59,754 nucleotides of DNA from Minisyncoccota bacterium (GTDB lineage: Bacteria; Patescibacteriota; Minisyncoccia; Phycocordibacterales; XYD1-FULL-46-19), in contig JBAYIK010000001.1 of the NCBI GenBank assembly GCA_041665625.1, positions 134,587 to 194,340 on the forward strand, written 5' to 3'. Both the position numbers and the translations under genes were made by a program. Position 1 is the stretch's first letter. Every line of letters begins with the position of its first letter. Shown piece after piece: positions 4,849 through 41,433 of the stretch. The notes below the pieces were generated by a model. That model was not told where the DNA came from, did not search any database, and saw only the letters and a program-made list of their open reading frames with translations.

Positions 4849-7815
4849 ATGGAAAACAAATCTAAGGCTCCTAAATATGAGCACGCAAAAATAGAAAGTA
4901 AATGGCAGAAGGTCTGGGCCAAAAATAAAACTTATGAGACCAAAGAGGGTGGCAAGAAGCCTAAAGCCTATGTTCTCGATATGTTCCCTTATCCATCTGG
5001 CGACGGGCTCCATGTGGGGCATCCCAAAGGCTATATCGCGACCGATATCTACTCCCGGTTCAAAAGGATGAACGGTTTTAATGTCCTACACCCTATGGGT
5101 TGGGACGCTTTTGGTCTACCCGCTGAGAATTATGCTATTAAGAATAAGATCAACCCAGAAATTGCTGTCAAAAAAAATATAAAATATTTCAAATCGCAAG
5201 TCGAGAAAATTGGTTTCGACTATGACTGGTCACGCGAAGTTAACACGACTGACCCCGGTTTCTACAAATGGACTCAATGGATTTTCCTTCAACTTTATAA
5301 AAAAGGCTTAGCTTTTGAGTCGTCTGAACCAATCAATTGGTGTCCATCGTGCAAGACCGGCCTAGCCAATGAAGATCTAGAAAATGGAAAATGCGAACGC
5401 TGCGGTTCAGAAGTAGAAAAGAAGCCAATTCGTCAGTGGGTACTCAAAATTACTGATTATGCTGAGCGCTTGCTCTCCGATCTTGAGGCTCTTAATTGGC
5501 CCGAGTCTATAAAAGAATCTCAGCGTAACTGGATTGGCAAAAGTGAAGGCTCCGAAATTTCTTTCCCGGTTAAAACTAAATATAAATATGTCCTTCTTCA
5601 TGGTTGGAAGAGTGATTCTAAGAGTTGCTTCATCCCATGGCTCAAACGTGAGCTTGAAGCTGAGGGCCACGAAGTGGTAGCACTTGATATGCCTCATCCA
5701 CTTATCCCTGACGTAGTAGAACAAGCCGACTATGTTCTCTCTAAGGTTAAATTTGACGAGAACACTATTTTGCTAGGGCATTCCCTTGGTTCTGTTGTCT
5801 CTTACCGCATCTTAGAGAAGTTAAAAACGCCCATCCACAAATTAATTTTAGTCGCTGGTTTGATTGAACCTAAATTCCGTGATCATGACCGGCTAATGGC
5901 AAAATACTTAATGAGTTGGAAATTTGATTTTGAAAAAATCAAAAAGAATGTCGGGGAAATAGTCATAATCGAAGACAACAATGACGTGATCATTCCTGAC
6001 GGAGAATCAGCGGTTATCCAACGAGCCTTAGGTGGCCTTACTTATCGTCTAGAAGCCGAGAAGCCTCATTTTTGTGGAATGGTTGAACCAATTGTTCTTG
6101 AACATTGTTTAGATAAAATAAAAGTCTTCACCACCCGAGCTGATACTTTGTTTGGGGCAACCTATCTAGTAGTGGCACCGGAGCACCCTCTAATTGAGAG
6201 ATTATCCCCTCAAATTACCAATATCAAAGAAGTCCAAGCGTACGTCGCAAAAACTATTAAAAGAACGGAAATTGAGCGCACTGCCGAAGGAAAAGAGAAA
6301 ACCGGGATAGAGATTCTTGGTTTAACCGCTATTAACCCTACCAATGGTCAAGAAATTCCTATCTGGGTGGCAGATTATGTCTTGCCTGACTACGGGACAG
6401 GGGCCATTATGGCGGTACCCGCTCATGACGAACGTGACCATCAATTTGCCAAGAAATTCAAACTACCAATTATCCAAGTAATTGGAGAAGATTTGCCGAC
6501 CAGATTAGAAAATTGGGGTGGGGCCTATGCCGGTTATGGCAAATTAGTTAACTCCGGTAAATTTACTGGGATGGAAAGTGTCAAAGCTAAAGAAGCCATT
6601 ACTAAAATGGTTCGCGGGAAAATTGTCACTAAATATAAACTACGCGACTGGGTCTTTTCTCGACAACGCTATTGGGGTGAACCAATCCCCATAATTCATT
6701 GCCCTAAATGTGGCCCAGTGCCCGTTCCTGAGAAAGATTTGCCCGTAATTCTGCCCAAAGTAAAGAGTTATGAACCAACCGGGACAGGGGAGTCACCGCT
6801 AGCCGCAATTTCTAAGTGGGTCAATGTGAAGTGCCCAACTTGTGGGGAGAAAGCTAAGAGAGAGACAAACACTATGCCTCAGTGGGCCGGTTCATCTTGG
6901 TACTACCTACGTTATATCGATCCTAAAAATACTAAAGCCCTTATTGATAAGAAAAAAGAAAAATACTGGTCACCCGTCGATATGTATGTTGGAGGGACCG
7001 AGCACGCAACACGACATTTAATTTACGCGCGCTTCTGGCACAAATTCTTGTTCGATATTGGTGCCGTCAGCCAAACTGAGCCCTTTACCCAGCTAAAAAA
7101 TCAGGGGATGATACTAGGTTCTGATAATCGCAAAATGAGTAAGCGCTGGGGTAATGTTGTTAATCCCGATGATATCGTCCGAGATTATGGCGCTGATACT
7201 TTACGCGTCTATGAGATGTTTATGGGCCCCTTCGAACAAGGAGCTTCTTGGAGCTCCGATAATCTAATGGGAGCCAGACGCTTTGTGGAGAAAGTTTGGC
7301 GACTAGCAGGGAAAGTCTCAACCGGGCGAAGTCACGTCTTAGGAGGGCCAGATAAGAGGCTCGAGACCTTACTTCATAAAACAATTAAACAGGCGACCAC
7401 CGACATTAATAACTTTAATTACAACACAGTTGTTTCGGCCTTAATGATATTAGCTAACGAATGGGAAAAGGCTGAGACAATCAACAAAGAAGATTGGCTA
7501 ACTTTCCTCAAGTTACTAGCTCCCTTGGCCCCTCATATGACCGAAGAATTGTGGTCCAGTTTAGGGCAAAAAGGGTCTATTCACCTTGCCGCTTGGCCAG
7601 TCTGGGACGAAAGCAAGCTAATTAGCGACACGGTTTCCCTGGTGATCCAAATAAATGGTAAGACCAGAGAAACAATAATTATCCCAACTAATCTCTCAGA
7701 AAAAGAGGCCGTAAAAATGGCTCTAGATAACGATATTGTGAAGAAGTGGGTCGGTGTCGAGCCCCTCAAAAAAATTATCTATATCCCTAATCGTTTGCTC
7801 AATTTAGTTATCTAA
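4849..7815 (+). CDS. leuS: leucyl-tRNA synthetase with inserted alpha/beta-hydrolase domain
   Basis: HIGH-type motif LHVGHP, KMSKS-type KMSKR, CP1 motifs VFTTRADTLFGATY and GTGAIMAVPAHDERD; ORF track starts at TTG 4843, ATG 4849 preferred. Confidence 0.95.
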   Translation: MENKSKAPKYEHAKIESKWQKVWAKNKTYETKEGGKKPKAYVLDMFPYPSGDGLHVGHPKGYIATDIYSRFKRMNGFNVLHPMGWDAFGLPAENYAIKNKINPEIAVKKNIKYFKSQVEKIGFDYDWSREVNTTDPGFYKWTQWIFLQLYKKGLAFESSEPINWCPSCKTGLANEDLENGKCERCGSEVEKKPIRQWVLKITDYAERLLSDLEALNWPESIKESQRNWIGKSEGSEISFPVKTKYKYVLLHGWKSDSKSCFIPWLKRELEAEGHEVVALDMPHPLIPDVVEQADYVLSKVKFDENTILLGHSLGSVVSYRILEKLKTPIHKLILVAGLIEPKFRDHDRLMAKYLMSWKFDFEKIKKNVGEIVIIEDNNDVIIPDGESAVIQRALGGLTYRLEAEKPHFCGMVEPIVLEHCLDKIKVFTTRADTLFGATYLVVAPEHPLIERLSPQITNIKEVQAYVAKTIKRTEIERTAEGKEKTGIEILGLTAINPTNGQEIPIWVADYVLPDYGTGAIMAVPAHDERDHQFAKKFKLPIIQVIGEDLPTRLENWGGAYAGYGKLVNSGKFTGMESVKAKEAITKMVRGKIVTKYKLRDWVFSRQRYWGEPIPIIHCPKCGPVPVPEKDLPVILPKVKSYEPTGTGESPLAAISKWVNVKCPTCGEKAKRETNTMPQWAGSSWYYLRYIDPKNTKALIDKKKEKYWSPVDMYVGGTEHATRHLIYARFWHKFLFDIGAVSQTEPFTQLKNQGMILGSDNRKMSKRWGNVVNPDDIVRDYGADTLRVYEMFMGPFEQGASWSSDNLMGARRFVEKVWRLAGKVSTGRSHVLGGPDKRLETLLHKTIKQATTDINNFNYNTVVSALMILANEWEKAETINKEDWLTFLKLLAPLAPHMTEELWSSLGQKGSIHLAAWPVWDESKLISDTVSLVIQINGKTRETIIIPTNLSEKEAVKMALDNDIVKKWVGVEPLKKIIYIPNRLLNLVI
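5581..6114 (+). other. alpha/beta serine-hydrolase-like domain inserted within LeuRS
   Basis: YKYVLLHGW, GHSLGS (GxSxG; Ser codon 5782-5784), EDNNDVIIPD, EKPHFCG; lies between SEGSEISFPVKTK and KIKVFTTRADT, which are about ten residues apart in ordinary bacterial LeuRS. Confidence 0.7.
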
Positions 7816-34493: not shown

Positions 34494-35411
34494 ATGAACA
34501 AAATTCCTGATTTTCCCGACTTTAAGGAGCTTGAACTCCGAGACAAGTCGGCACTTGAAAGATTAACCAAAAAATTCAAACCTTACTCCGACTTTAATTT
34601 CTCAAGCCTTTGGGCTTGGAACATAAAAACAAAAACTAGAATCTCTAAATTAAACAACAACTTAGTGATTCTTTTTAATGACTATATTACCAACAAACCA
34701 GTTGTCTCCTTTCTCGGTTTAAATAAAGTTATAGAAACAACTAATGCTTTATTCGATTTTTCTCAAAAGCATAAGTACGGCGAATCACTCCGACTGATTG
34801 CCGAGGAGACAGCTGAAGCTCTTCCTAAATCGGAATTTAAAGTTGAGGCCGATCAAGATTCCTTCGACTATGTTTACCCTGTTGCCAATTTGGCCAATAT
34901 GAATAATTGGCCAAAAAGCCGTTCTCGCAAAAGCATTCGGCAATTTATAAAAAAATTCCCCGATTACAAAATTAAACTTTCAAGCATTCAGAAAGTAGAT
35001 CAGGAAGAACACTTAAAGATGTTCCAGAAATGGGCCGAGAACAAAGAGATCTCGAATGTCTTTGAGTTAAATGAGTACAAAGCTTTCAAACGTTTCCTCG
35101 AATTGCCTGACCCCAAAATTAAAGTGGTCTCTCTTTATGTGGACAATGTTTTGCTTGGATTTACTGTCTACGAGATTCAAACTGATGAGTATGTTTTATC
35201 ACACTTTGCTAAGGCCAATACTAAATTCCACCCAGGAACCAACGATATCTTAAACTGGGAGGAGGCCAAGCTCCTCGACGCCCAAGGTTTCAAATACTAT
35301 AACTGGGAGCAAGACCTCGGCCTTCTTGGTTTGCGTAAGTCTAAAGAAAAATATAAGCCCAGTTTCTTTTTGAAGAAGTTTACGGTGAGGAAAAATAATA
35401 GCTTAGATTAA
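34494..35411 (+). CDS. hypothetical protein, possibly DUF2156 / MprF C-terminal-like acyltransferase fold
   Basis: N-terminal YSDFNFSSLWAWN pattern recalled from DUF2156 proteins; TATAAT (34480-34485) 8 nt before ATG. Confidence 0.35.
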   Translation: MNKIPDFPDFKELELRDKSALERLTKKFKPYSDFNFSSLWAWNIKTKTRISKLNNNLVILFNDYITNKPVVSFLGLNKVIETTNALFDFSQKHKYGESLRLIAEETAEALPKSEFKVEADQDSFDYVYPVANLANMNNWPKSRSRKSIRQFIKKFPDYKIKLSSIQKVDQEEHLKMFQKWAENKEISNVFELNEYKAFKRFLELPDPKIKVVSLYVDNVLLGFTVYEIQTDEYVLSHFAKANTKFHPGTNDILNWEEAKLLDAQGFKYYNWEQDLGLLGLRKSKEKYKPSFFLKKFTVRKNNSLD

Positions 35412-36065
35412 AAAGCTAACTGTATCATCTACCAATTCCTTCTCTTGCTCTGGGGTCTCCACCGAATGCCCCATATCATTTATTTTTTCCACATTAGAAT
35501 CTGGCAAATAACTAGCTAACCGGAGAGAATTCTCTATTGATACATTATTGTCCTTGGTTCCGTGAATAATCTTTACTGGTACTTTTATATTAGACAGCAA
35601 ATTCTTATCGACAAGTACTTCCAACAGTGAGCTAATTTCAGAAAAAACAATATCAATTTTTTCATTTAAGTTGCCCTTATCATCCGCGACTCCAATAACT
35701 GGTGCCCAGAGGACCATCTTGGTAATCTCAGGGTAATTGCGAGTCAGGAGAATACCTCCACCCAGACTTTTACCAATAGCAAATATTTTAGTGTAGCCCT
35801 TAAATCTGAGAAATTCTATCGCTTGAAAAACGTCTTCTTGAATTTGTCTGATACTTTTCTTCTCAAGCTCTTCAACGCTATCCCAACTTTGGACACGAAG
35901 AAAATCCATACCTAAGCGCAAGCACACGTCGGACAATTGCTTATATTTATCAGAAAAAGCTTTACCGCTAACACCGGGGATAAAAATAACAGCAGTGTTA
36001 GATTCTGCTTCCCCCTTATCGAGAACAACTTTAGTTATGCCATTGTCTAATGTTATTATATCCAT
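35403..36065 (-). CDS. alpha/beta hydrolase (serine hydrolase), last gene of the YcaO cassette
   Basis: VIFIPGVSG, nucleophile elbow GKSLGGG, IHGTKDNNV, C-terminal MGHSV; 26 nt downstream of ycaO. Confidence 0.75.
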   Translation of the reverse strand: MDIITLDNGITKVVLDKGEAESNTAVIFIPGVSGKAFSDKYKQLSDVCLRLGMDFLRVQSWDSVEELEKKSIRQIQEDVFQAIEFLRFKGYTKIFAIGKSLGGGILLTRNYPEITKMVLWAPVIGVADDKGNLNEKIDIVFSEISSLLEVLVDKNLLSNIKVPVKIIHGTKDNNVSIENSLRLASYLPDSNVEKINDMGHSVETPEQEKELVDDTVSFLI

Positions 36066-36091
36066 AAGTTAAATATTATCATTAGGAATGA

Positions 36092-37372
36092 TTATGGGAA
36101 AGGGTGAGGAAGAGAGTTCAGTTTTTCTTCTATCTTTAGACCTAGCTTAATAGGCATATCCCAGAGTCTTTTAGCCCCCTCTCTTGGTAGCAGGTGGGTC
36201 TTGTTTAGATCTACTAAACCTGGGACAATGACGCGGAAGACCCTAACTTTTGTCGACTCAATATCTTTGGTGGTCAATTCTTTAAAGAAGACTTCTAATC
36301 CTAGTTCCTGTAAGTTATTTAACAGGTGGTTAAAAGAGTATTTTTCTTTTAAGTATTTAATTGTTCCACCATTAAAGACAAGTTGGTTAAATTTCTCGTC
36401 TTGATAATAAAGAAAGTGCTCATAAAGCGCCCTTATTGATTCTTTATTTTTGGGTTTGGCGCCCATGATATTTTTAGAGTAGAGAAAGGTAAAAAGACAC
36501 TCTTCAAGAGTTTTGTTGATAGCTATCTCTGAATCGAGAGAAGCGCAGGCTCCGATACCGTAATGAATCTTTTTACCTTTACCTTTCCAAATCAAACCGA
36601 CAAAAATTGGTATATTAATGTCACTATAAAGTTTATAAATTTTAATCTCATACCCATCTTCGGATAGTTTTTTTATTAGAGACTCATTAGAGTCATTTAT
36701 TGAACTAATTAATATTTCTGGGGGATCTAGCCTCTGCAGAAAATTAGTCATCAGAGCATCTCGTTCTATTAACTCCAATAATCCGCTCATTATTATCCTC
36801 TTCTTGTCAGTTCCGGCCGCCATTCCAGTCGAAGTCGTCTCGGCGGATAATTTCCCCTCATCAAATGGTAGGTAAATAAGACTGGCTGGCCAATATTTAA
36901 ATTTCCCAGGGCTTACAAATGACTCGATTTTATCCCAATATATTTTTTCCTTTAAGGGGTCGGCAAAAGATTTATTTTTACGATATTGTTCTTTTGAATA
37001 TAAAGAAAAATCATCAAATCTCGTTTTTTTAGATAGATCTTCGTGTCGCCCGAAAAATAAACCACCTTTATTGTAATAGGACATGCAGTATCTCTCCAGA
37101 GACTCGCCCATACAGGCATGAAGAGCAAAACGACCATCTTTATTTATTCCCAAGCCTCCACTTGATACCTCGCGGGATCTATTAAAAAGGATAACTGTTT
37201 GGGCTGATAGAGACTGGAACATTGAATAGCCGTAGCGTGACAAGTCGTTACGACGAAGGAGAGCATTAACTATCCCAATTTTATCACTAAAAATCTTTGA
37301 GTATTGTTTCCTGTCTGGCGCGGTTAACTCAGTAATCTCCCTTAAATTTTTAATTAGCTGTTTATTTGCCAT
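36092..37372 (-). CDS. ycaO: YcaO-domain protein (ATP-dependent peptide backbone-modifying enzyme family)
   Basis: ACMGESLERY, STGMAAG, LELIERDA, C-terminal PHPFP (PxPxP tail). Confidence 0.85.
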   Translation of the reverse strand: MANKQLIKNLREITELTAPDRKQYSKIFSDKIGIVNALLRRNDLSRYGYSMFQSLSAQTVILFNRSREVSSGGLGINKDGRFALHACMGESLERYCMSYYNKGGLFFGRHEDLSKKTRFDDFSLYSKEQYRKNKSFADPLKEKIYWDKIESFVSPGKFKYWPASLIYLPFDEGKLSAETTSTGMAAGTDKKRIIMSGLLELIERDALMTNFLQRLDPPEILISSINDSNESLIKKLSEDGYEIKIYKLYSDINIPIFVGLIWKGKGKKIHYGIGACASLDSEIAINKTLEECLFTFLYSKNIMGAKPKNKESIRALYEHFLYYQDEKFNQLVFNGGTIKYLKEKYSFNHLLNNLQELGLEVFFKELTTKDIESTKVRVFRVIVPGLVDLNKTHLLPREGAKRLWDMPIKLGLKIEEKLNSLPHPFP

Positions 37373-37697
37373 TTTGGCAGGAATGATTACACCCGGGTAT
37401 TAAGATAAAATGGTGTTCGGTCACTTGTTGTTCTTTAGTAATTTCTAGCATTAGATTTTCTAAGCCCTTCTTATTGAAGTAATGTTTTAGGTTTCCTCCC
37501 CCAATAAAATTAAGATAATTAATAAATTCTCTAAATTCAGAAGATAAAATTCTTTTTTTAAAACAAACAGAACAAAAAGATGGGGAGACCCGAGGGCCTA
37601 TTAGCAAATTTTTACCCACTCTGGCCACAAAAATATCCCCCGAGACCAGGGTTATTTTTTCTTTTTCTATAAAATCTTTGAGGTTTATTAAGGCCAT
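37362..37697 (-). CDS. small Cys-rich protein translationally coupled to YcaO
   Basis: 111 aa from ATG 37697; CSVC and C-terminal PGCNHSCQNGK; stop overlaps the ycaO start by 11 nt. Confidence 0.6.
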   Translation of the reverse strand: MALINLKDFIEKEKITLVSGDIFVARVGKNLLIGPRVSPSFCSVCFKKRILSSEFREFINYLNFIGGGNLKHYFNKKGLENLMLEITKEQQVTEHHFILIPGCNHSCQNGK

Positions 37698-37717
37698 TGT
37701 TATCAACTGAAATAAAA

Positions 37718-37740
37718 GCCATCCCTTGTTAGAGATGGCC
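37718..37740 (-). terminator. weak hairpin plus T-run between the sORF and the YcaO operon (possible attenuator)
   Basis: Minus strand GCCATC-TCTAACAAGG-GATGGC followed by TTTTATTT. Confidence 0.35.
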
Positions 37741-37752
37741 CTTATTTTTTAA

Positions 37753-37806
37753 CTACGCGGTACAGAGTAAATCGTATTTCTTATCGAATTTCTTGATAAA
37801 TTTCAT
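37753..37806 (-). CDS. candidate 17-aa sORF MKFIKKFDKKYDLLCTA
   Basis: Own translation of the minus strand; lies between the putative promoter and the weak hairpin; no independent coding support. Confidence 0.2.
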   Translation of the reverse strand: MKFIKKFDKKYDLLCTA

Positions 37807-37856
37807 TCTATAGTAGAATTATTTAGGAGGCTAATCGCTTGGCCGACCTTTTTTCT

Positions 37857-37884
37857 ATAGTATACGTTTATTTTTATTAGTCAA
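37857..37884 (-). promoter_or_regulatory. putative promoter of the YcaO cassette
   Basis: Minus strand TTGACT (37884-37879), 16-nt spacer, TACTAT (37862-37857). Confidence 0.45.
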
Positions 37885-37888
37885 TAAA

Positions 37889-37921
37889 GGCCCGGCGAAT
37901 CAATTAAGATCCGCCGGGCCT
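37889..37921 (-). terminator. intrinsic terminator of the C39-like peptidase gene
   Basis: AGGCCCGGCG ... CGCCGGGCCT hairpin; on the minus strand followed by TTTATT. Confidence 0.7.
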
Positions 37922-37935
37922 GTTTCAAAACGAGT

Positions 37936-39513
37936 CTAGGCAAGGAGTTTCCGGGCCTCTTCCTGATAAGCGGGCAGGCTCTTCGTCAGGTTAAGGACGG
38001 ATTCTTGGTCTGAACGTAGGGCCATAATCCAACGACCAATCTTGGTGTCCATAAAGGACGCGAGTTCTCTTTCTCTCATCTGCCTTTTTCGTCCGCCAAT
38101 AGGGTCGATGACCAAGTAGCCACCTGAGTTGTAACCCGTTAGGAGAATCGAGTGCAATATACCACCACTGATAACCCCAGCCACCATTACCAGGTAGCCG
38201 TCCTCAAGGTAGCTCCTAATGTCTTCGGGGGTCAACCTTGCGTTACATTCGACCCTTGCCAAGCGATGACCCTTAATCTTCTCCAAATAGGATCGGTACT
38301 CGTTCATCAGTGATTCGAAGAGCTCTGCTGGTAACCATTTCTGGGAGTTATCGAACATCTGAGGTGCTGAATGCACCAGAACTGTCTCCAGACCCAACGA
38401 AACAGCTTTTACGGCTACTCCTGAGTAGTGTTGGCCAATGGTTATGTTCGACTTACTGGCCTCGGCAACTTCTTCTTCAAACCCCTCACTCAGCTCTGCG
38501 AGTCCAAAGTGTGCCGCAACCATTGTTAGGCAGGCTGCACTGCAGGTAAGTCCGTGCTGGCCGAATGGTGCCACTTGTCTGTCCATAACGTCCCTCCGGT
38601 AGGTGATGAGTTTGTTCAGGGCCGCCTCAATGTCACTATCCTGGTATTGGTAGATACCACTGCCCGCTGGCAAAATCTTTGTTTCTACCAAGTACCGCAA
38701 CACTTCTTTCCTCAGGACGAAACCGGAAATTCCGACAAGCTCTCGGGCGATCTGTTTTTCCTCGTTGTTGTCATAGGCGAGACTTTGCATCATCGCCCTG
38801 ATTCTCGGTCTCTCCAGCCCAAGGTAAAAATGCTTGACCCAGCGAGTATCTTCGTACGTCAATTCCTCGGTCCTCCTTTTCAAGGCAAAGACATCATCTT
38901 CGACCAAATAAGCAAAACGCCTCATCCGGCCACTGAAGATTTCTTCGTCACCGGCGTGGTACTGCCTGATCAGTTGCTCTCTTTCGCTCGTCGCGTCATT
39001 GCCTTCCCTCATCGAAATGAGATAAGAAATATGATCGATGACATACTGAACAGGGTACGGAGTCGCAGGGAGACTAAGGAAGACTCCAAGATCCTCATCG
39101 CTCAGGCACTTGCATTCCGGTAGACACCCCATCCAGTAAGAGACATGTTTCTTTATCGCGGCCGATACCACCAAGGTGGCCTGATCGACAAGTGAACCTG
39201 CCATGTAGGCATCACGGAGGATTTCAATCCGTTTTGGGGTAAGACGAAAGACGTTTGGCTCAAGCAACAAGGGAAGAGCCGGTTCGAGAAGATTCTCATA
39301 GAATTCGTTATGCCAGTTCCACCTAGCGCAGAGTTCTTGAAAAAATTCCTGTGGGGGGATAAGAGAGCGTCTTTCGACGATCTCACTAAGACGGGGGTTG
39401 GCTTCGGCAAAATAACGGTTTGCTCCCACCAGTTCTCTCTCGAGCGTAGCGTCAATATCGTCTTTCCACGAGGAAGGGATAATGACAGACTTAAGAGTTT
39501 TTTTCCTTTGCAT
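37936..39513 (-). CDS. large protein with C-terminal C39-like (papain-fold) cysteine peptidase domain
   Basis: FGQHGLTCSAACLTMVAAHF (Gln...Cys) and HSILLTGYNSGGYLVIDP (His...Asp) fit C39-like catalytic order; ATG 39513 sits 5 nt after AGGAGG (39524-39519). Confidence 0.6.
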   Translation of the reverse strand: MQRKKTLKSVIIPSSWKDDIDATLERELVGANRYFAEANPRLSEIVERRSLIPPQEFFQELCARWNWHNEFYENLLEPALPLLLEPNVFRLTPKRIEILRDAYMAGSLVDQATLVVSAAIKKHVSYWMGCLPECKCLSDEDLGVFLSLPATPYPVQYVIDHISYLISMREGNDATSEREQLIRQYHAGDEEIFSGRMRRFAYLVEDDVFALKRRTEELTYEDTRWVKHFYLGLERPRIRAMMQSLAYDNNEEKQIARELVGISGFVLRKEVLRYLVETKILPAGSGIYQYQDSDIEAALNKLITYRRDVMDRQVAPFGQHGLTCSAACLTMVAAHFGLAELSEGFEEEVAEASKSNITIGQHYSGVAVKAVSLGLETVLVHSAPQMFDNSQKWLPAELFESLMNEYRSYLEKIKGHRLARVECNARLTPEDIRSYLEDGYLVMVAGVISGGILHSILLTGYNSGGYLVIDPIGGRKRQMRERELASFMDTKIGRWIMALRSDQESVLNLTKSLPAYQEEARKLLA

Positions 39514-39558
39514 AGACACCTCCTTTCAATGTTCAAACTGACCAATTATTAAACATTA

Positions 39559-39587
39559 ATTATACAATGTCAATGTTTCGCCCGCAA
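39559..39587 (-). promoter_or_regulatory. putative promoter of the C39-like gene
   Basis: Minus strand TTGCGG, 17-nt spacer, TATAAT (39564-39559). Confidence 0.4.
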
Positions 39588-40172: not shown

Positions 40173-40547
40173 ATGGACAAAAAGTCTAAAATCTTATTAG
40201 GGATATTAGCTTTAGTGATTTTTATTTCGGTTGGGATTAGCTTCTATCAGACAATTTATATCCACAAATATCTGATTACAACTGAAATTTCTTGTGACCC
40301 AAACAAAGAATCTTGTTTCGTCTTTGAGTGTGACCCTGTAGAGGATGAGTCTTGCAGTAAAGACCCAAATCAGCAGGTCAGCTATTATAAAATAATAAGC
40401 AAGAATGCTCAAAACATACCAATCTGTGAAAGCGGAAATGATAATTGTCCAGAATTATCCTGCATTTATGGGGAAAAAGATTGCCAAATAACATTATGCG
40501 CCCCAGATGAAGGCGAAGGGATAATTTGTAGTGATAATAAAATATAA
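40173..40547 (+). CDS. secreted or membrane-anchored Cys-rich protein
   Basis: N-terminal hydrophobic anchor ILLGILALVIFISVGISF, then 12 Cys in about 95 aa; TATAAT (40161-40166) 6 nt before ATG. Confidence 0.55.
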   Translation: MDKKSKILLGILALVIFISVGISFYQTIYIHKYLITTEISCDPNKESCFVFECDPVEDESCSKDPNQQVSYYKIISKNAQNIPICESGNDNCPELSCIYGEKDCQITLCAPDEGEGIICSDNKI

Positions 40548-40551
40548 AGAC

Positions 40552-41433
40552 ATGGTTGAATCCATAATAAACACAAAAAAAATAGCCGAGGCCGAAGTTG
40601 TAATATTAAGCGCCCCCTATGGGAAATCCTTCACCTACCGATCAGGAGCAGAAAATGGACCCAAAGAAATTGTTAACTGTTTACATGGGAATCTTGAATT
40701 TTTTGATAGGTTTCTCAAGCTTGAGCCCGTACGATATATAAAAACAGCGCATCATGAATTAAAGGGGCTTAATAAATTAACCCCGACAAAAATGATCCAA
40801 ACTGTCAATAATTTTTATAAAGAAAATAAAGATAAATTTATTGTCATGCTGGGCGGAGATCATTCTGTTTCGCTTGGATCTTTTTCTTATTTTTCCCAAA
40901 ATAACAACTCTTCAGAGATAACGATCTTGCAGATAGATGCCCACCCAGACCTAAGAGACGACACCTCTGACTATCAAGAAAAAACAGAGAAACTTAGTCA
41001 TGCCTGCACAATGAGGCGAGCCTACGAAATGGGATTCAAAACCGTCCAGGTCGGGATTAGGACATATTCAATATTCGAAAATGATTTTATTAAAAAAAAT
41101 AATCTAAAGGTTTTCGAATGGGGAAGAGGGAAGAATCCTTCTATAAAAGAAATCATTGATTCCATAAAAACAGACAAAGTTTACCTAACCTTAGATGTTG
41201 ACGGTCTTGATCCAGCCCACATGCCCGCCACCGGAACGCCCGTGCCAGGAGGATTAGAGTGGTTCTACGCTCGAGATTTAATCAGAAATTTAATTATATC
41301 CAAAGACTTAATTGGAGCCGATATTGTAGAAGTTTCTCCTGTAAGAGAGAGTGTTTTGACTCAGTATGGAGCAGCTCAATTGTGCTATGACATTTTTGCT
41401 TATAAAAAATTAAAGGATAAGGGGCTACTTTAA
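40552..41433 (+). CDS. speB: agmatinase/arginase-family ureohydrolase
   Basis: GGDHSVSLG, LQIDAHPDLRDD, LTLDVDGLDPAHMPATGTPVPGGL. Confidence 0.85.
   Translation: MVESIINTKKIAEAEVVILSAPYGKSFTYRSGAENGPKEIVNCLHGNLEFFDRFLKLEPVRYIKTAHHELKGLNKLTPTKMIQTVNNFYKENKDKFIVMLGGDHSVSLGSFSYFSQNNNSSEITILQIDAHPDLRDDTSDYQEKTEKLSHACTMRRAYEMGFKTVQVGIRTYSIFENDFIKKNNLKVFEWGRGKNPSIKEIIDSIKTDKVYLTLDVDGLDPAHMPATGTPVPGGLEWFYARDLIRNLIISKDLIGADIVEVSPVRESVLTQYGAAQLCYDIFAYKKLKDKGLL

What the first reader, a model, noticed from the sequence alone, without database searches (positions are those of the whole stretch)
35403..37884. Minimal YcaO cassette: small Cys-rich protein, YcaO, alpha/beta hydrolase, with no known partner enzyme
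Seen: three tightly packed minus-strand genes. 36092-37372 encodes a 426-aa YcaO-domain protein (GESLERY, STGMAAG, LELIERDA, C-terminal PHPFP). Its start overlaps by 11 nt the stop of a 111-aa protein with CSVC and a PGCNHSCQNGK tail. A 220-aa serine hydrolase (GKSLG elbow, C-terminal GHS) lies 26 nt downstream. Established: YcaOs ATP-activate backbone amides, giving azolines with E1/Ocin-ThiF partners, thioamides with TfuA, or amidines; the PxPxP tail is typical of active members. No E1/ThiF-like, TfuA, FMN dehydrogenase, radical-SAM or exporter gene is in the window. Inference: this trio is not a named YcaO architecture. It is visibly more AT-rich than its flanks but shares the SD-less start style of the backbone. 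The substrate could be a small peptide, the Cys/Ser tail of the 111-aa protein, or a housekeeping protein.
Basis: partly seen in the sequence, partly recalled or inferred. Interest (0 to 1): 0.8.

Follow-up and report, generated by a model that had tools for sequence, protein, structure and literature searches.

The report
Compact YcaO peptide-maturation operon, unannotated precursor
The YcaO gene is real, but it belongs to a conserved four-part operon: a 17-residue peptide gene that the gene calls on related contigs did not include, a protease with a new helical domain, a remnant of the usual YcaO partner, and YcaO itself; this looks like an undescribed, very small ribosomal-peptide pathway shared by Patescibacteria and gut Bacilli.

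Summary
The three minus-strand ORFs and all quoted motifs are present, and the 426-aa protein is a YcaO of the azoline-forming SagD type. The cassette was drawn wrongly, though. Across about 37 related loci from Patescibacteria-like and gut Bacilli contigs, the conserved unit has four parts:

- A tiny ORF that was not among the genes called on related contigs (window 37753-37806, MKFIKKFDKKYDLLCTA). Its tail is always D-[LM]-[LI]-C-[T/S/C]-x-stop.
- The upstream 525-aa protein: a new all-helical domain fused to a C39-like cysteine peptidase with its catalytic residues (Gln, Cys, His, Asp) intact.
- The 111-aa protein.
- YcaO.

The 111-aa protein is not a substrate, because its cysteines are lost in the Bacilli branch. 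It is a cryptic remnant of the C-terminal half of the E1-like (SagC) partner. The hydrolase is optional: it occurs only in the closest relatives and in one distant locus.

The nearest other YcaOs (25% identity) sit in canonical SagC-SagD-SagB clusters. No SagB dehydrogenase or TfuA was found here.

Best reading: a minimal RiPP pathway that makes one or two azolines at the C-terminal Cys-Thr of an 18-mer, followed by proteolytic processing. This is a new variant of a known kind. The chemistry and the role of the product are untested.

The parts
37753..37806 (-). Precursor-peptide gene, not among the genes called at the equivalent position in relatives: 17 aa, MKFIKKFDKKYDLLCTA. The family consensus ends D-[LM]-[LI]-C-[T/S/C]-[A/S/V]-stop.
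   Evidence: Translation is. The ORF is present in all 37 family loci that hold the relevant DNA. Bacilli-type copies have a strong AGGAGG Shine-Dalgarno 6-9 nt upstream. Invariant F, D, C and T are each written with several different codons. Gene callers did not call it at the equivalent position in relatives.
37710..37747 (-). Stem-loop followed by a T-run, lying between the peptide gene and the 111-aa gene. Probably an attenuator or transcript-stabilising hairpin.
   Evidence: RNAfold gives -21.4 kcal/mol. A hairpin follows the peptide ORF in every lineage, although the sequences differ.
37857..37884 (-). Promoter-like site (TTGACT, 16 nt, TACTAT) in front of the peptide-small-YcaO-hydrolase transcription unit.
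   Evidence: Promoter scan. The site is conserved in L002, L011 and L012.
37362..37697 (-). 111-aa protein: a cryptic remnant of the C-terminal half of the E1-like (SagC) cyclodehydratase partner. A CxxC...H...PGC zinc-type motif is present in this lineage only.
   Evidence: It lies directly upstream of YcaO in all family loci. Its AF2 model has pLDDT 75.7. Foldseek top hits are all E1-like proteins: MccB, LynD, PaaA, ThiF and Atg7, and all are weak. hhalign against SagC-like proteins gives E=0.0024, against 0.12 for the reversed profile. The HMM hits are colinear with residues about 150-305 of fused E1-YcaO proteins.
36092..37372 (-). YcaO, SagD/azoline-forming type, 426 aa, with the PHPFP C-terminus.
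   Evidence: PF02624 matches at 1.6e-40 and TIGR03604 scores 193.6 bits. The closest solved structures are MusD, LynD and TruD. E90/E93/R94, E200/E203/R204 and PHPFP are invariant in 24 family members.
35403..36065 (-). Alpha/beta serine hydrolase, 220 aa. An accessory, lineage-restricted member of the operon.
   Evidence: Pfam matches Hydrolase_4 and Peptidase_S9. It is present only in relatives whose YcaO is at least 61% identical. A homologue with 32% identity (E=4e-34) lies beside a distant N-domain plus C39 gene pair in L094.
37936..39513 (-). 525-aa protein: a new all-helical N-terminal domain (about residues 1-312, window 38578-39513) fused to a C39-like papain-fold cysteine peptidase (window 37936-38577). 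The catalytic residues are Q319, C324, H454 and D470.
   Evidence: It lies immediately upstream in every family locus that holds enough DNA. Peptidase_C39_2 matches all 18 aligned members, best E 1.5e-10. The PDB entry 3erv, a C39-like peptidase, matches at 0.0024. Q, C, H and D are invariant. The N-domain matches no Pfam family and only 100 of 1.84 billion representative proteins.
37889..37920 (-). GC-rich hairpin (GGCCCGGCG...CGCCGGGCC) followed by TTTATT, just after the 525-aa gene. Terminator-like, it separates two transcription units in this lineage.
   Evidence: Read directly from the sequence and conserved in L002, L011 and L012.
39545..39573 (-). Promoter-like site (TTGACA, 17 nt, AATAAT; 11 of 12 matches) upstream of the 525-aa gene.
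   Evidence: Promoter scan.

Best explanation
This is a compact RiPP (ribosomally synthesised, post-translationally modified peptide) operon with four core genes and one optional gene.

Proposed steps, all inferred from sequence:
1. The 17-18-residue peptide, which has a basic N-terminal part and an invariant D-[LM]-[LI]-C-[T/S/C]-x tail, is the substrate.
2. YcaO, assisted by the 111-aa remnant of the E1-like partner, uses ATP to activate the backbone amide in front of the invariant Cys. It probably also activates the amide in front of the following Thr/Ser/Cys. The result is a thiazoline, or a tandem thiazoline-(methyl)oxazoline, at the C-terminus.
3. No dehydrogenase is present, so the rings would stay as azolines.
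4. The 525-aa protein then processes the peptide with its C39-like cysteine-peptidase domain. Its new helical domain probably binds or positions the peptide, since the usual leader-binding RRE is missing.
5. In this lineage the alpha/beta hydrolase would add a trimming or tailoring step.

Shown here: the gene set, its co-conservation, the peptide and its selective constraint, intact catalytic residues, and the E1-like ancestry of the small protein. Inferred: the substrate assignment, the azoline chemistry, the cleavage, and the role of the helical domain. The biological role of the product is unknown.
For: - **Discrete YcaO family.** It forms a clade of 281 clusters, more than 50% identical within the family and about 25% to the next YcaOs.
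- **Conserved gene set.** Every locus with enough DNA has the 525-aa gene, the 111-aa gene and YcaO in that order. The flanking genes differ from locus to locus.
- **The peptide.**
  - The tiny ORF is present in all 37 informative loci. It lies upstream of the big gene in Bacilli and between the big and small genes in Patescibacteria-like loci.
  - It has a strong SD in Bacilli and a hairpin behind it in all lineages.
  - Synonymous codon variation occurs at invariant residues.
  - The residue after the invariant Cys is only T, S or C, which is exactly the set that YcaO cyclodehydratases heterocyclise.
- **YcaO type.** Its best matches are SagD-type TIGR03604 and the heterocyclases MusD, LynD and TruD. 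The acidic ER motifs and PHPFP are invariant.
- **Nearest outgroups.** These YcaOs sit in SagC-SagD-SagB clusters, with SagC in the position held here by the 111-aa gene.
- **Small protein.** It resembles the C-terminal half of E1-like domains.
- **Peptidase.** The catalytic residues (Gln, Cys, His, Asp) are invariant.
- **Helical domain in other RiPP contexts.** Homologues lie next to MbnB/TglH/ChrH-type RiPP enzymes in L092 and L095.
Against: - No modified peptide has been observed, so the chemistry is entirely inferred.
- The peptide has no double-glycine site, which is the usual C39 cleavage motif, and no clear FxxxB leader motif.
- No RRE was detected in any of the proteins, so leader recognition is unexplained.
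- The similarity of the small protein to E1-like domains is weak in every single test (Foldseek E 0.07, hhalign E 0.0024, probability 12%). It rests on consistency across tests.
- No exporter or immunity gene is conserved, which is unusual for an antibiotic-type RiPP.
- The near-invariance of the whole peptide across phyla is unlike most RiPP cores.
- TIGR03604 scores below its curated cut-off.
- The helical-domain model is poor (pLDDT 53), so its role is a guess.
Confidence: 0.6

Rival explanations
1. Scaffold-peptide logic, as in pearlins or mycofactocin. The conserved 12-13 N-terminal residues are only a handle. The last three to six residues (…L-C-T-A) are converted into a small azoline-containing molecule, such as a cofactor, metal chelator or signal. 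The peptidase, and the hydrolase where present, then cut it off.
For: The whole peptide is nearly invariant across two phyla. That fits a conserved physiological product better than a diversifying antibiotic. No exporter or immunity gene is conserved. A cytoplasmic peptidase is always present and a second hydrolase sometimes. Homologues of the helical domain accompany MNIO enzymes, which act on Cys residues of short peptides.
Against: There is no direct evidence for a released small molecule, and the cleavage site is unknown. This is a refinement of the best explanation rather than a true alternative.
Confidence: 0.2
2. YcaO performs a different amide-activation reaction on the same peptide. 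Candidates are amidine formation, thioamidation with a sulfur donor encoded elsewhere, or ATP-dependent peptide-bond cleavage as shown for MusD.
For: MusD is the best-matching solved structure. It both cyclodehydrates and cleaves a C-terminal dipeptide (PMC10885120). Bottromycin and streptamidine YcaOs make amidines with no partner or only a cryptic one (bioRxiv 10.1101/2020.05.04.076059). The family scores below the SagD cut-off.
Against: The restriction of the residue after Cys to T/S/C points to side-chain nucleophiles, that is, azolines. No TfuA appears in any neighbourhood.
Confidence: 0.12
3. The tiny ORF is a regulatory leader peptide that works by attenuation through the downstream hairpin. 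On this view YcaO modifies a housekeeping protein, as archaeal YcaO modifies McrA.
For: In the window the ORF is followed by a terminator-like hairpin with a T-run, just upstream of the small-YcaO genes. The module sits among housekeeping genes in some Bacilli loci.
Against: In Bacilli the ORF precedes the peptidase gene, not YcaO, and the hairpin there lacks a T-run. The amino-acid sequence is conserved across phyla through synonymous changes, including the Cys-[T/S/C] pair. A dedicated peptidase is always linked. The YcaO is of the peptide-heterocyclase type, not the McrA type: TIGR03266 scores only 66.5 bits against a cut-off of 365.
Confidence: 0.06
4. One reading: the Cys/Ser-rich tail of the 111-aa protein is itself the YcaO substrate.
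For: This lineage has CSVC and PGCNHSC motifs, and the small gene is translationally coupled to YcaO.
Against: All these cysteines are absent from the Bacilli-type orthologues, whose tails end in PGENDEKK or similar. Only G34, P35, R49, S52, E85 and P101 are invariant. Where present, the cysteines align with the structural CxxC…PxC zinc motif of SagC-like proteins.
Confidence: 0.02

Closest known systems
SagBCD / McbBCD-type TOMM (linear azol(in)e peptide) synthetases
   Same: The YcaO is of the SagD type (best NCBIfam model). A gene derived from the E1-like C protein lies directly upstream of YcaO, as in the nearest outgroup clusters. A ribosomal precursor with Cys/Thr sits at the modification site.
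   Different: The C protein is reduced to about 110 aa: only the C-terminal half of the E1-like fold, with no RRE. There is no SagB FMN dehydrogenase. The precursor is only 14-20 aa, with a single Cys-[T/S/C] pair rather than a Cys/Ser/Thr-rich core. The protease is a soluble C39-like enzyme with a new domain, not a CAAX or TldD/E protease.
Cyanobactin heterocyclases LynD, TruD and MusD
   Same: These are the closest solved YcaO domains (E 4.5e-25 to 5.7e-21). They are azoline-forming and need no dehydrogenase for the azoline step.
   Different: Those enzymes are 775-784-aa fusions of RRE, E1-like domain and YcaO. Here YcaO stands alone and only a fragment of the E1-like part is encoded, as a separate gene. 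There are no PatA/PatG-type subtilisin proteases.
Partner-free or cryptic-partner YcaOs (bottromycin BotC/BotCD; streptamidine AmiB/AmiD)
   Same: The YcaO gene stands alone. A partner that ordinary domain searches miss has a precedent: AmiB was recognised only by structure modelling (bioRxiv 10.1101/2020.05.04.076059).
   Different: AmiB spans the full RRE plus E1-like region (TruD residues 4-315), whereas the protein here is a 110-aa fragment. Those pathways occur in Actinobacteria, with longer precursors and different chemistry (amidines).
C39 leader peptidases of PCAT transporters (for example LahT150)
   Same: Papain-fold Gln/Cys/His/Asp active site, with a Peptidase_C39_2/C39 HMM match in all members.
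   Different: No ABC transporter is fused or adjacent. The peptide has no GG/GA/GS cleavage motif. The peptidase is fused instead to a 310-aa helical domain with no known family.
MNIO (MbnB/TglH/ChrH) RiPP clusters
   Same: Homologues of the helical domain, with or without the C39 domain, lie beside MNIO genes in L092 and L095. MNIO enzymes also act on Cys in short peptides.
   Different: The modifying enzyme is unrelated: an iron oxidase rather than an ATP-dependent YcaO. Only the accessory protein is shared.

Membership tests
YcaO superfamily (PF02624) | Significant match to the YcaO domain model over its full length | tested here: met
   E=1.6e-40, 139.9 bits against a cut-off of 25.7; model positions 10-324 of 325.
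YcaO superfamily (PF02624) | Conserved acidic/Arg ATP-Mg motifs and the proline-rich C-terminus typical of active members (the mapping of these motifs is from established knowledge) | tested here: met
   E90, E93, R94, E200, E203, R204 and P422-H-P-F-P426 are invariant in 24 family members.
SagD-family TOMM cyclodehydratase (TIGR03604) | Score at or above the curated cut-off of the model | tested here: not met
   193.6 bits against a cut-off of 219.25. It is still the best-scoring model and is matched end to end, positions 2-377 of 377.
TOMM / linear azol(in)e peptide gene cluster | E1-like (SagC/McbB) or Ocin-ThiF partner with an N-terminal RRE | tested here: inconclusive
   Only a 110-aa protein is present. 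It aligns weakly but consistently with the C-terminal half of E1-like domains. No RRE and no Pfam or NCBIfam match was found.
TOMM / linear azol(in)e peptide gene cluster | SagB-type FMN dehydrogenase (needed for azoles, not for azolines) | tested here: not met
   An HMM built from six outgroup SagB proteins gave no hit (E up to 1) in the window or in any family locus.
TOMM / linear azol(in)e peptide gene cluster | Adjacent precursor peptide with cyclisable Cys/Ser/Thr | tested here: met
   An 18-codon ORF with an invariant Cys followed by T/S/C is present in all 37 informative loci. It is a minimal version, with one pair only.
TOMM / linear azol(in)e peptide gene cluster | Azoline or azole rings in the product | not testable with these tools
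   Needs mass spectrometry of the co-expressed peptide.
TfuA-dependent thioamidation systems | TfuA gene next to YcaO | tested here: not met
   No TfuA family appears among the precomputed Pfam hits of neighbours in L002-L009. The McrA-type model TIGR03266 scores 66.5 bits against a cut-off of 365.
Cyanobactin-type fused heterocyclase (LynD/TruD/MusD) | RRE, E1-like domain and YcaO in one polypeptide of about 780 aa | tested here: not met
   The protein is 426 aa. The alignment covers only residues about 350-775 of those chains.
Peptidase C39 / C39-like (PF03412, PF13529) | Papain-fold domain with catalytic Gln, Cys, His and Asp | tested here: met
   PF13529 matches 18 of 18 aligned members, best E 1.5e-10; the window protein itself reaches only 0.017. 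PDB 3erv matches at E 0.0024. Q319, C324, H454 and D470 are invariant.
Peptidase C39 / C39-like (PF03412, PF13529) | PCAT context: fused ABC transporter and a double-glycine leader in the substrate | tested here: not met
   No transporter domain is present in the protein. The peptide contains no Gly at all.

The most novel reading that the evidence does not exclude
The operon makes a conserved, very small azoline-bearing molecule, such as a cofactor, metal chelator or signal, rather than an antibiotic. Reduced-genome Patescibacteria and gut Bacilli keep the pathway because their host-dependent life needs this molecule. The 310-aa helical domain would then be a new kind of RiPP recognition or tailoring module, shared between YcaO-based and MNIO-based pathways. 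The 110-aa protein would define the minimal piece of the E1-like fold that a YcaO needs.
Probability: 0.25. Interest if true: 0.9.

Novelty: new variant of a known kind. Interest (0 to 1): 0.74.

Why it matters
- **Hidden precursors.** A YcaO that looks 'orphan' can hide its precursor and partners. Here the precursor is only 14-20 codons, and gene callers did not call it in the relatives examined.
- **Role of the partner protein.** A natural E1-like remnant of 110 aa offers a direct test of which part of the partner protein activates YcaO. That question is still unsettled in the mechanism of azoline formation.
- **A new accessory domain.** The helical domain fused to the peptidase has no known family. 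It is rare (about 100 clusters among 1.84 billion representative proteins) and also accompanies MNIO enzymes. It may be a new accessory module for Cys-modifying peptide pathways.
- **Biology of small-genome bacteria.** Almost the same peptide occurs in Patescibacteria from digesters and in small-genome Bacilli of the human gut. This suggests a conserved physiological product in organisms with very little biosynthetic capacity.

Tried and rejected
- **Structure of the helical domain.** The run with the permitted fragment alignment gave pLDDT 53, and its Foldseek matches were meaningless (best E 0.8). The fold of this domain therefore remains unknown.
- **Profile searches with no useful result.**
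  - Profile against PDB sequences for the small protein.
  - Pfam scans of all 78 small-protein homologues.
  - hhalign of the full small-protein family, which is dominated by Cys-less Bacilli sequences, against SagC. It aligned only the last 18 columns. The signal appeared only with the Cys-containing subgroup.
- **Chimeric alignment trick.** I used it to retrieve homologues of both proteins in one search. It returned the small proteins but only fragments of the big one.
- **Taxonomy.** Cluster look-up gave no organism names.
- **Other negative searches.**
  - No relatives on viral contigs.
  - No PADLOC defence models.
  - No Rfam family in the intergenic regions.
- **Literature.** Searches found no description of this architecture or of the peptide sequence. 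The library does not cover all journals.
- **Ideas rejected.**
  - The 111-aa protein as substrate: its cysteines are not conserved.
  - The hydrolase as a core member: absent from the Bacilli loci.
  - A recurring out-of-frame match 'NFFCSISN' inside the big gene: treated as a by-product of the conserved coding sequence.
  - My early guess that the helical domain is a heme-oxygenase-like diiron oxidase: nothing supports it.

Full report
**1. Observation**

- Hydrolase: 35403-36065, 220 aa.
- YcaO: 36092-37372, 426 aa.
- Small protein: 111 aa from the ATG at 37697. Its stop overlaps the YcaO start by 11 nt.

Every quoted motif is present. YcaO matches PF02624 at E=1.6e-40. Its best curated family is the SagD-type cyclodehydratase TIGR03604, matched end to end at 193.6 bits, a little under the 219.25 cut-off. 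The hydrolase passes the Pfam cut-offs of Hydrolase_4 and Peptidase_S9. The small protein and the 525-aa protein upstream match no Pfam or NCBIfam family.

**2. The conserved unit is different from the trio**

The YcaO belongs to a tight family. There are 281 clusters at 90% identity, nearly all 423-428 aa and more than 50% identical to the window protein. In a metagenome scan identity then falls abruptly to about 25%.

The closest named relative (86% identity) is annotated Candidatus Paceibacterota. Most other members come from human-gut and other metagenomes, and one from a MAG labelled uncultured Bacilli.

I compared 44 family loci by tblastn and ORF calling.
- Every locus with enough upstream DNA has a 520-565-aa homologue of the window's 37936-39513 gene, then a 105-119-aa homologue of the small protein, then YcaO.
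- The surrounding genes differ completely between loci.
- The hydrolase is found only in the closest subgroup, where YcaO is at least 61% identical.

**3. A precursor-peptide gene that gene callers did not call**

The 229-nt gap between the big and small genes contains an 18-codon ORF, window 37753-37806, encoding MKFIKKFDKKYDLLCTA.

It aligns with the same ORF in relatives. The differences are synonymous, for example AAA/AAG, TTC/TTT, GAT/GAC, TGT/TGC and ACC/ACA.

A pattern search found the ORF in every family locus that contains the relevant DNA, 37 in all.
- In Patescibacteria-like loci it lies between the big and small genes.
- In Bacilli-type loci it lies 45-91 nt upstream of the big gene, as MRKLMKKFNRKYDMLCTA.
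- The Bacilli copies carry a strong AGGAGG Shine-Dalgarno sequence.
- All copies are followed by a hairpin.

Among 13 distinct Bacilli-type ORFs, the invariant F, D, C and T are each written with two or three codons. The amino-acid changes are mostly K/R and L/M.

The tail is always D-[LM]-[LI]-C-[T/S/C]-[A/S/V]-stop. The residue after the invariant Cys is Thr, Ser or, in L030, Cys. These are exactly the residues that YcaO cyclodehydratases convert to azolines (established knowledge of the family).

Gene callers did not call this ORF in the relatives. A full-text search for the peptide sequence found nothing.

**4. The 525-aa protein**

An alignment of 18 orthologues shows two parts.

The C-terminal 210 residues are a C39-like papain-fold peptidase.
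- PF13529 matches all 18 members, best E 1.5e-10.
- The PDB entry 3erv, a 'putative C39-like peptidase', matches at E=0.0024.
- Gln319, Cys324, His454 and Asp470 are invariant.

The N-terminal 310 residues are predicted to be all-helical. They match no Pfam family.
- A profile search of 1.84 billion representative proteins found only 100 relatives.
- Across the wider family W65, D248 and E252 are invariant. H68, S117, K121, H186, R196, N249 and R268 are nearly so.
- The AF2 model was poor (pLDDT 53), and its fold search gave nothing usable.

Distant homologues place this domain in other peptide-modification settings.
- L092: a stand-alone copy lies directly after an MbnB/TglH/ChrH enzyme (Pfam E=1.2e-73). 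A 22-codon ORF ending MCGD lies between the two genes.
- L095: a copy fused to C39 lies divergent from another MNIO gene.
- L094: the domain, a separate C39_2 peptidase gene and an alpha/beta hydrolase follow one another. That hydrolase is 32% identical to the window's (E=4e-34).
- P0283: the domain is fused to PPDK_N and PEP-utilizer domains.

The hydrolase is therefore a recurrent but optional companion of this peptidase module.

**5. The 111-aa protein**

Only G34, P35, R49, S52, E85 and P101 are invariant. The CxxC and PGC cysteines exist in the Patescibacteria-like branch and are lost in Bacilli. The tail therefore cannot be a conserved substrate.

Several weak results point to an E1-like origin.
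- An AF2 model built from 78 sequences reached pLDDT 75.7.
- Its Foldseek hits are weak (E 0.07-0.7). However, 19 of the first 21 ranks are MccB chains, and the others are LynD and PaaA; ThiF also appears there and Atg7 follows. All are E1-like proteins.
- The nearest outgroup YcaOs lie in canonical clusters. A 244-332-aa SagC-family protein sits directly upstream and a SagB dehydrogenase downstream. The small gene occupies the SagC position.
- hhalign of the Cys-containing subgroup against four SagC-like proteins aligns residues 28-109 with SagC residues 159-266 of 269.
  - Both the CxxC motif and the H-x-h-h-x-[VI]-P-x-C motif are in register.
  - E is 0.0024, against 0.12 for the reversed profile and 0.75 for SagB.
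- An HMM of the subgroup was searched against all 1,335 ORFs of the outgroup loci.
  - About 21 of the top 26 hits are SagC-like proteins or fused E1-YcaO cyclodehydratases.
  - HMM positions 5-60 fall at residues about 150-215. Positions 93-110 fall at about 260-305. This is the last part of the E1-like domain, just before the YcaO domain.

Each test is weak, but together they agree. I conclude that the small protein is a remnant of the C-terminal half of the E1-like partner, without its RRE.

**6. What is absent**

- No SagB-like dehydrogenase in the window or in any family locus.
- No TfuA among the annotated neighbours.
- No conserved exporter or immunity gene.
- No relatives on viral contigs.
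- No defence-system models.
- No Rfam family in the intergenic regions.

**7. Transcription units in the window**

A promoter-like site (39545-39573) precedes the big gene, which ends in a GC-rich hairpin plus TTTATT (37889-37920). A second promoter-like site (37857-37884) precedes the peptide gene. Its hairpin (37710-37747) is followed by the small gene, YcaO and the hydrolase, tightly packed.

The big gene has GC 0.50 and GC3 0.56. The other three genes have GC 0.33-0.38 and GC3 0.30-0.35, in a window of GC 0.427. I have no explanation for this contrast.

**8. Mechanism**

The best-supported reading is a minimal RiPP pathway.
1. YcaO, with the E1-like remnant, cyclodehydrates the Cys, and probably the following Thr/Ser/Cys, of the short peptide.
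2. Without a dehydrogenase the rings stay as azolines.
3. The C39-like domain processes the peptide, with the helical domain supplying recognition.
4. The hydrolase adds a step in some lineages.

None of the chemistry has been observed. The main rivals are:
- Scaffold-peptide logic that releases a very small molecule.
- A different YcaO reaction on the same peptide, such as amidine formation or MusD-like cleavage. MusD is the closest solved structure.
- A regulatory leader peptide combined with a protein substrate. This is unlikely, given the peptide's conservation pattern and its changing position between lineages.

**9. Comparison and novelty**

The system works like a TOMM cyclodehydratase, but it fails or only partly meets several features of that family.
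- Its score is below the SagD cut-off.
- It has no RRE-bearing partner.
- It has no dehydrogenase.
- Its peptidase is not of the PCAT type.

Cryptic E1-like partners have a precedent (AmiB, bioRxiv 10.1101/2020.05.04.076059), as do partner-free YcaOs (bottromycin, same source). A review of RiPP leader peptidases lists C39 enzymes only as PCAT domains that cleave at double-glycine motifs (PMC10885120).

I found no description of this gene set, though the searchable library is incomplete. I rate it a new variant of a known kind.

Noticed in passing
window 37936-39513 versus 35403-37697: There is a sharp compositional break inside the module. The 525-aa gene has GC 0.50 and GC3 0.56, at the top of the window's range. 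The small gene, YcaO and the hydrolase have GC 0.33-0.38 and GC3 0.30-0.35, near the bottom. The window average is 0.427. A different origin or a different expression regime could explain it, but neither was tested.
   Followed up: partly
L092:5889-5957 (between the MNIO gene at 5008-5865 and the helical-domain gene at 6001-6975): A 22-codon ORF, MEFTIQEVLTTEVETKEKMCGD, with a Cys near its C-terminus, lies between an MbnB/TglH/ChrH enzyme gene and a stand-alone homologue of the helical domain. It is a candidate precursor of a second, MNIO-based pathway that uses the same accessory domain. Its conservation was not checked.
   Followed up: partly
L094:100-2356: In a distant locus three genes follow one another: the helical domain (353 aa), a separate C39_2 peptidase (198 aa, overlapping reading frames) and an alpha/beta hydrolase 32% identical to the window's. 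The contig starts just upstream, so it is unknown whether a YcaO or a peptide gene precedes them.
   Followed up: partly
P0283 / L090:526-3078: An 850-aa protein joins the helical domain to PPDK_N and PEP-utilizer (phosphotransfer) domains, which is a different ATP-using partner. The locus does not translate to the stored protein with table 11, and a neighbouring gene shows 10 in-frame stops. This suggests an alternative genetic code.
   Followed up: no
L001:7336-9740: In the Bacilli MAG, YcaO is followed by a nucleotidyltransferase-like protein (322 aa, weak NTP_transf_5 match) and a radical SAM protein (479 aa, E=5e-21). These could be lineage-specific tailoring genes. They are not present in other Bacilli-type loci such as L006.
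   Followed up: partly
L037:1946-1987: The peptide ORF in L037 lacks an in-frame ATG unless one A is removed from a run of eight A's. This could be an assembly error in a homopolymer or a real frameshift. The tail, TDLLCTA, is intact.
   Followed up: no
window 34494-35411 (+): A 305-aa protein of the LPG_synthase_C / DUF2156 family (E=1.1e-21, related to aminoacyl-tRNA-dependent transferases) converges on the hydrolase gene and overlaps its 3' end by 9 nt. It is not conserved next to the module in the 86%-identical relatives.
   Followed up: partly
window 40173-40547 (+): A 124-aa protein with an N-terminal hydrophobic anchor and 12 cysteines has no Pfam match. Its end overlaps the start of an arginase-family gene at 40531-41433.
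   Followed up: no
L008:8300-15281: In one gut Bacilli lineage, YcaO is followed by a 289-aa protein with no Pfam match. After it come three genes of 230-239 aa and a 61-aa gene, all without precomputed Pfam hits, and then an ABC_tran/FtsX-type transporter. This could be an export or immunity set, but it is not conserved elsewhere.
   Followed up: no
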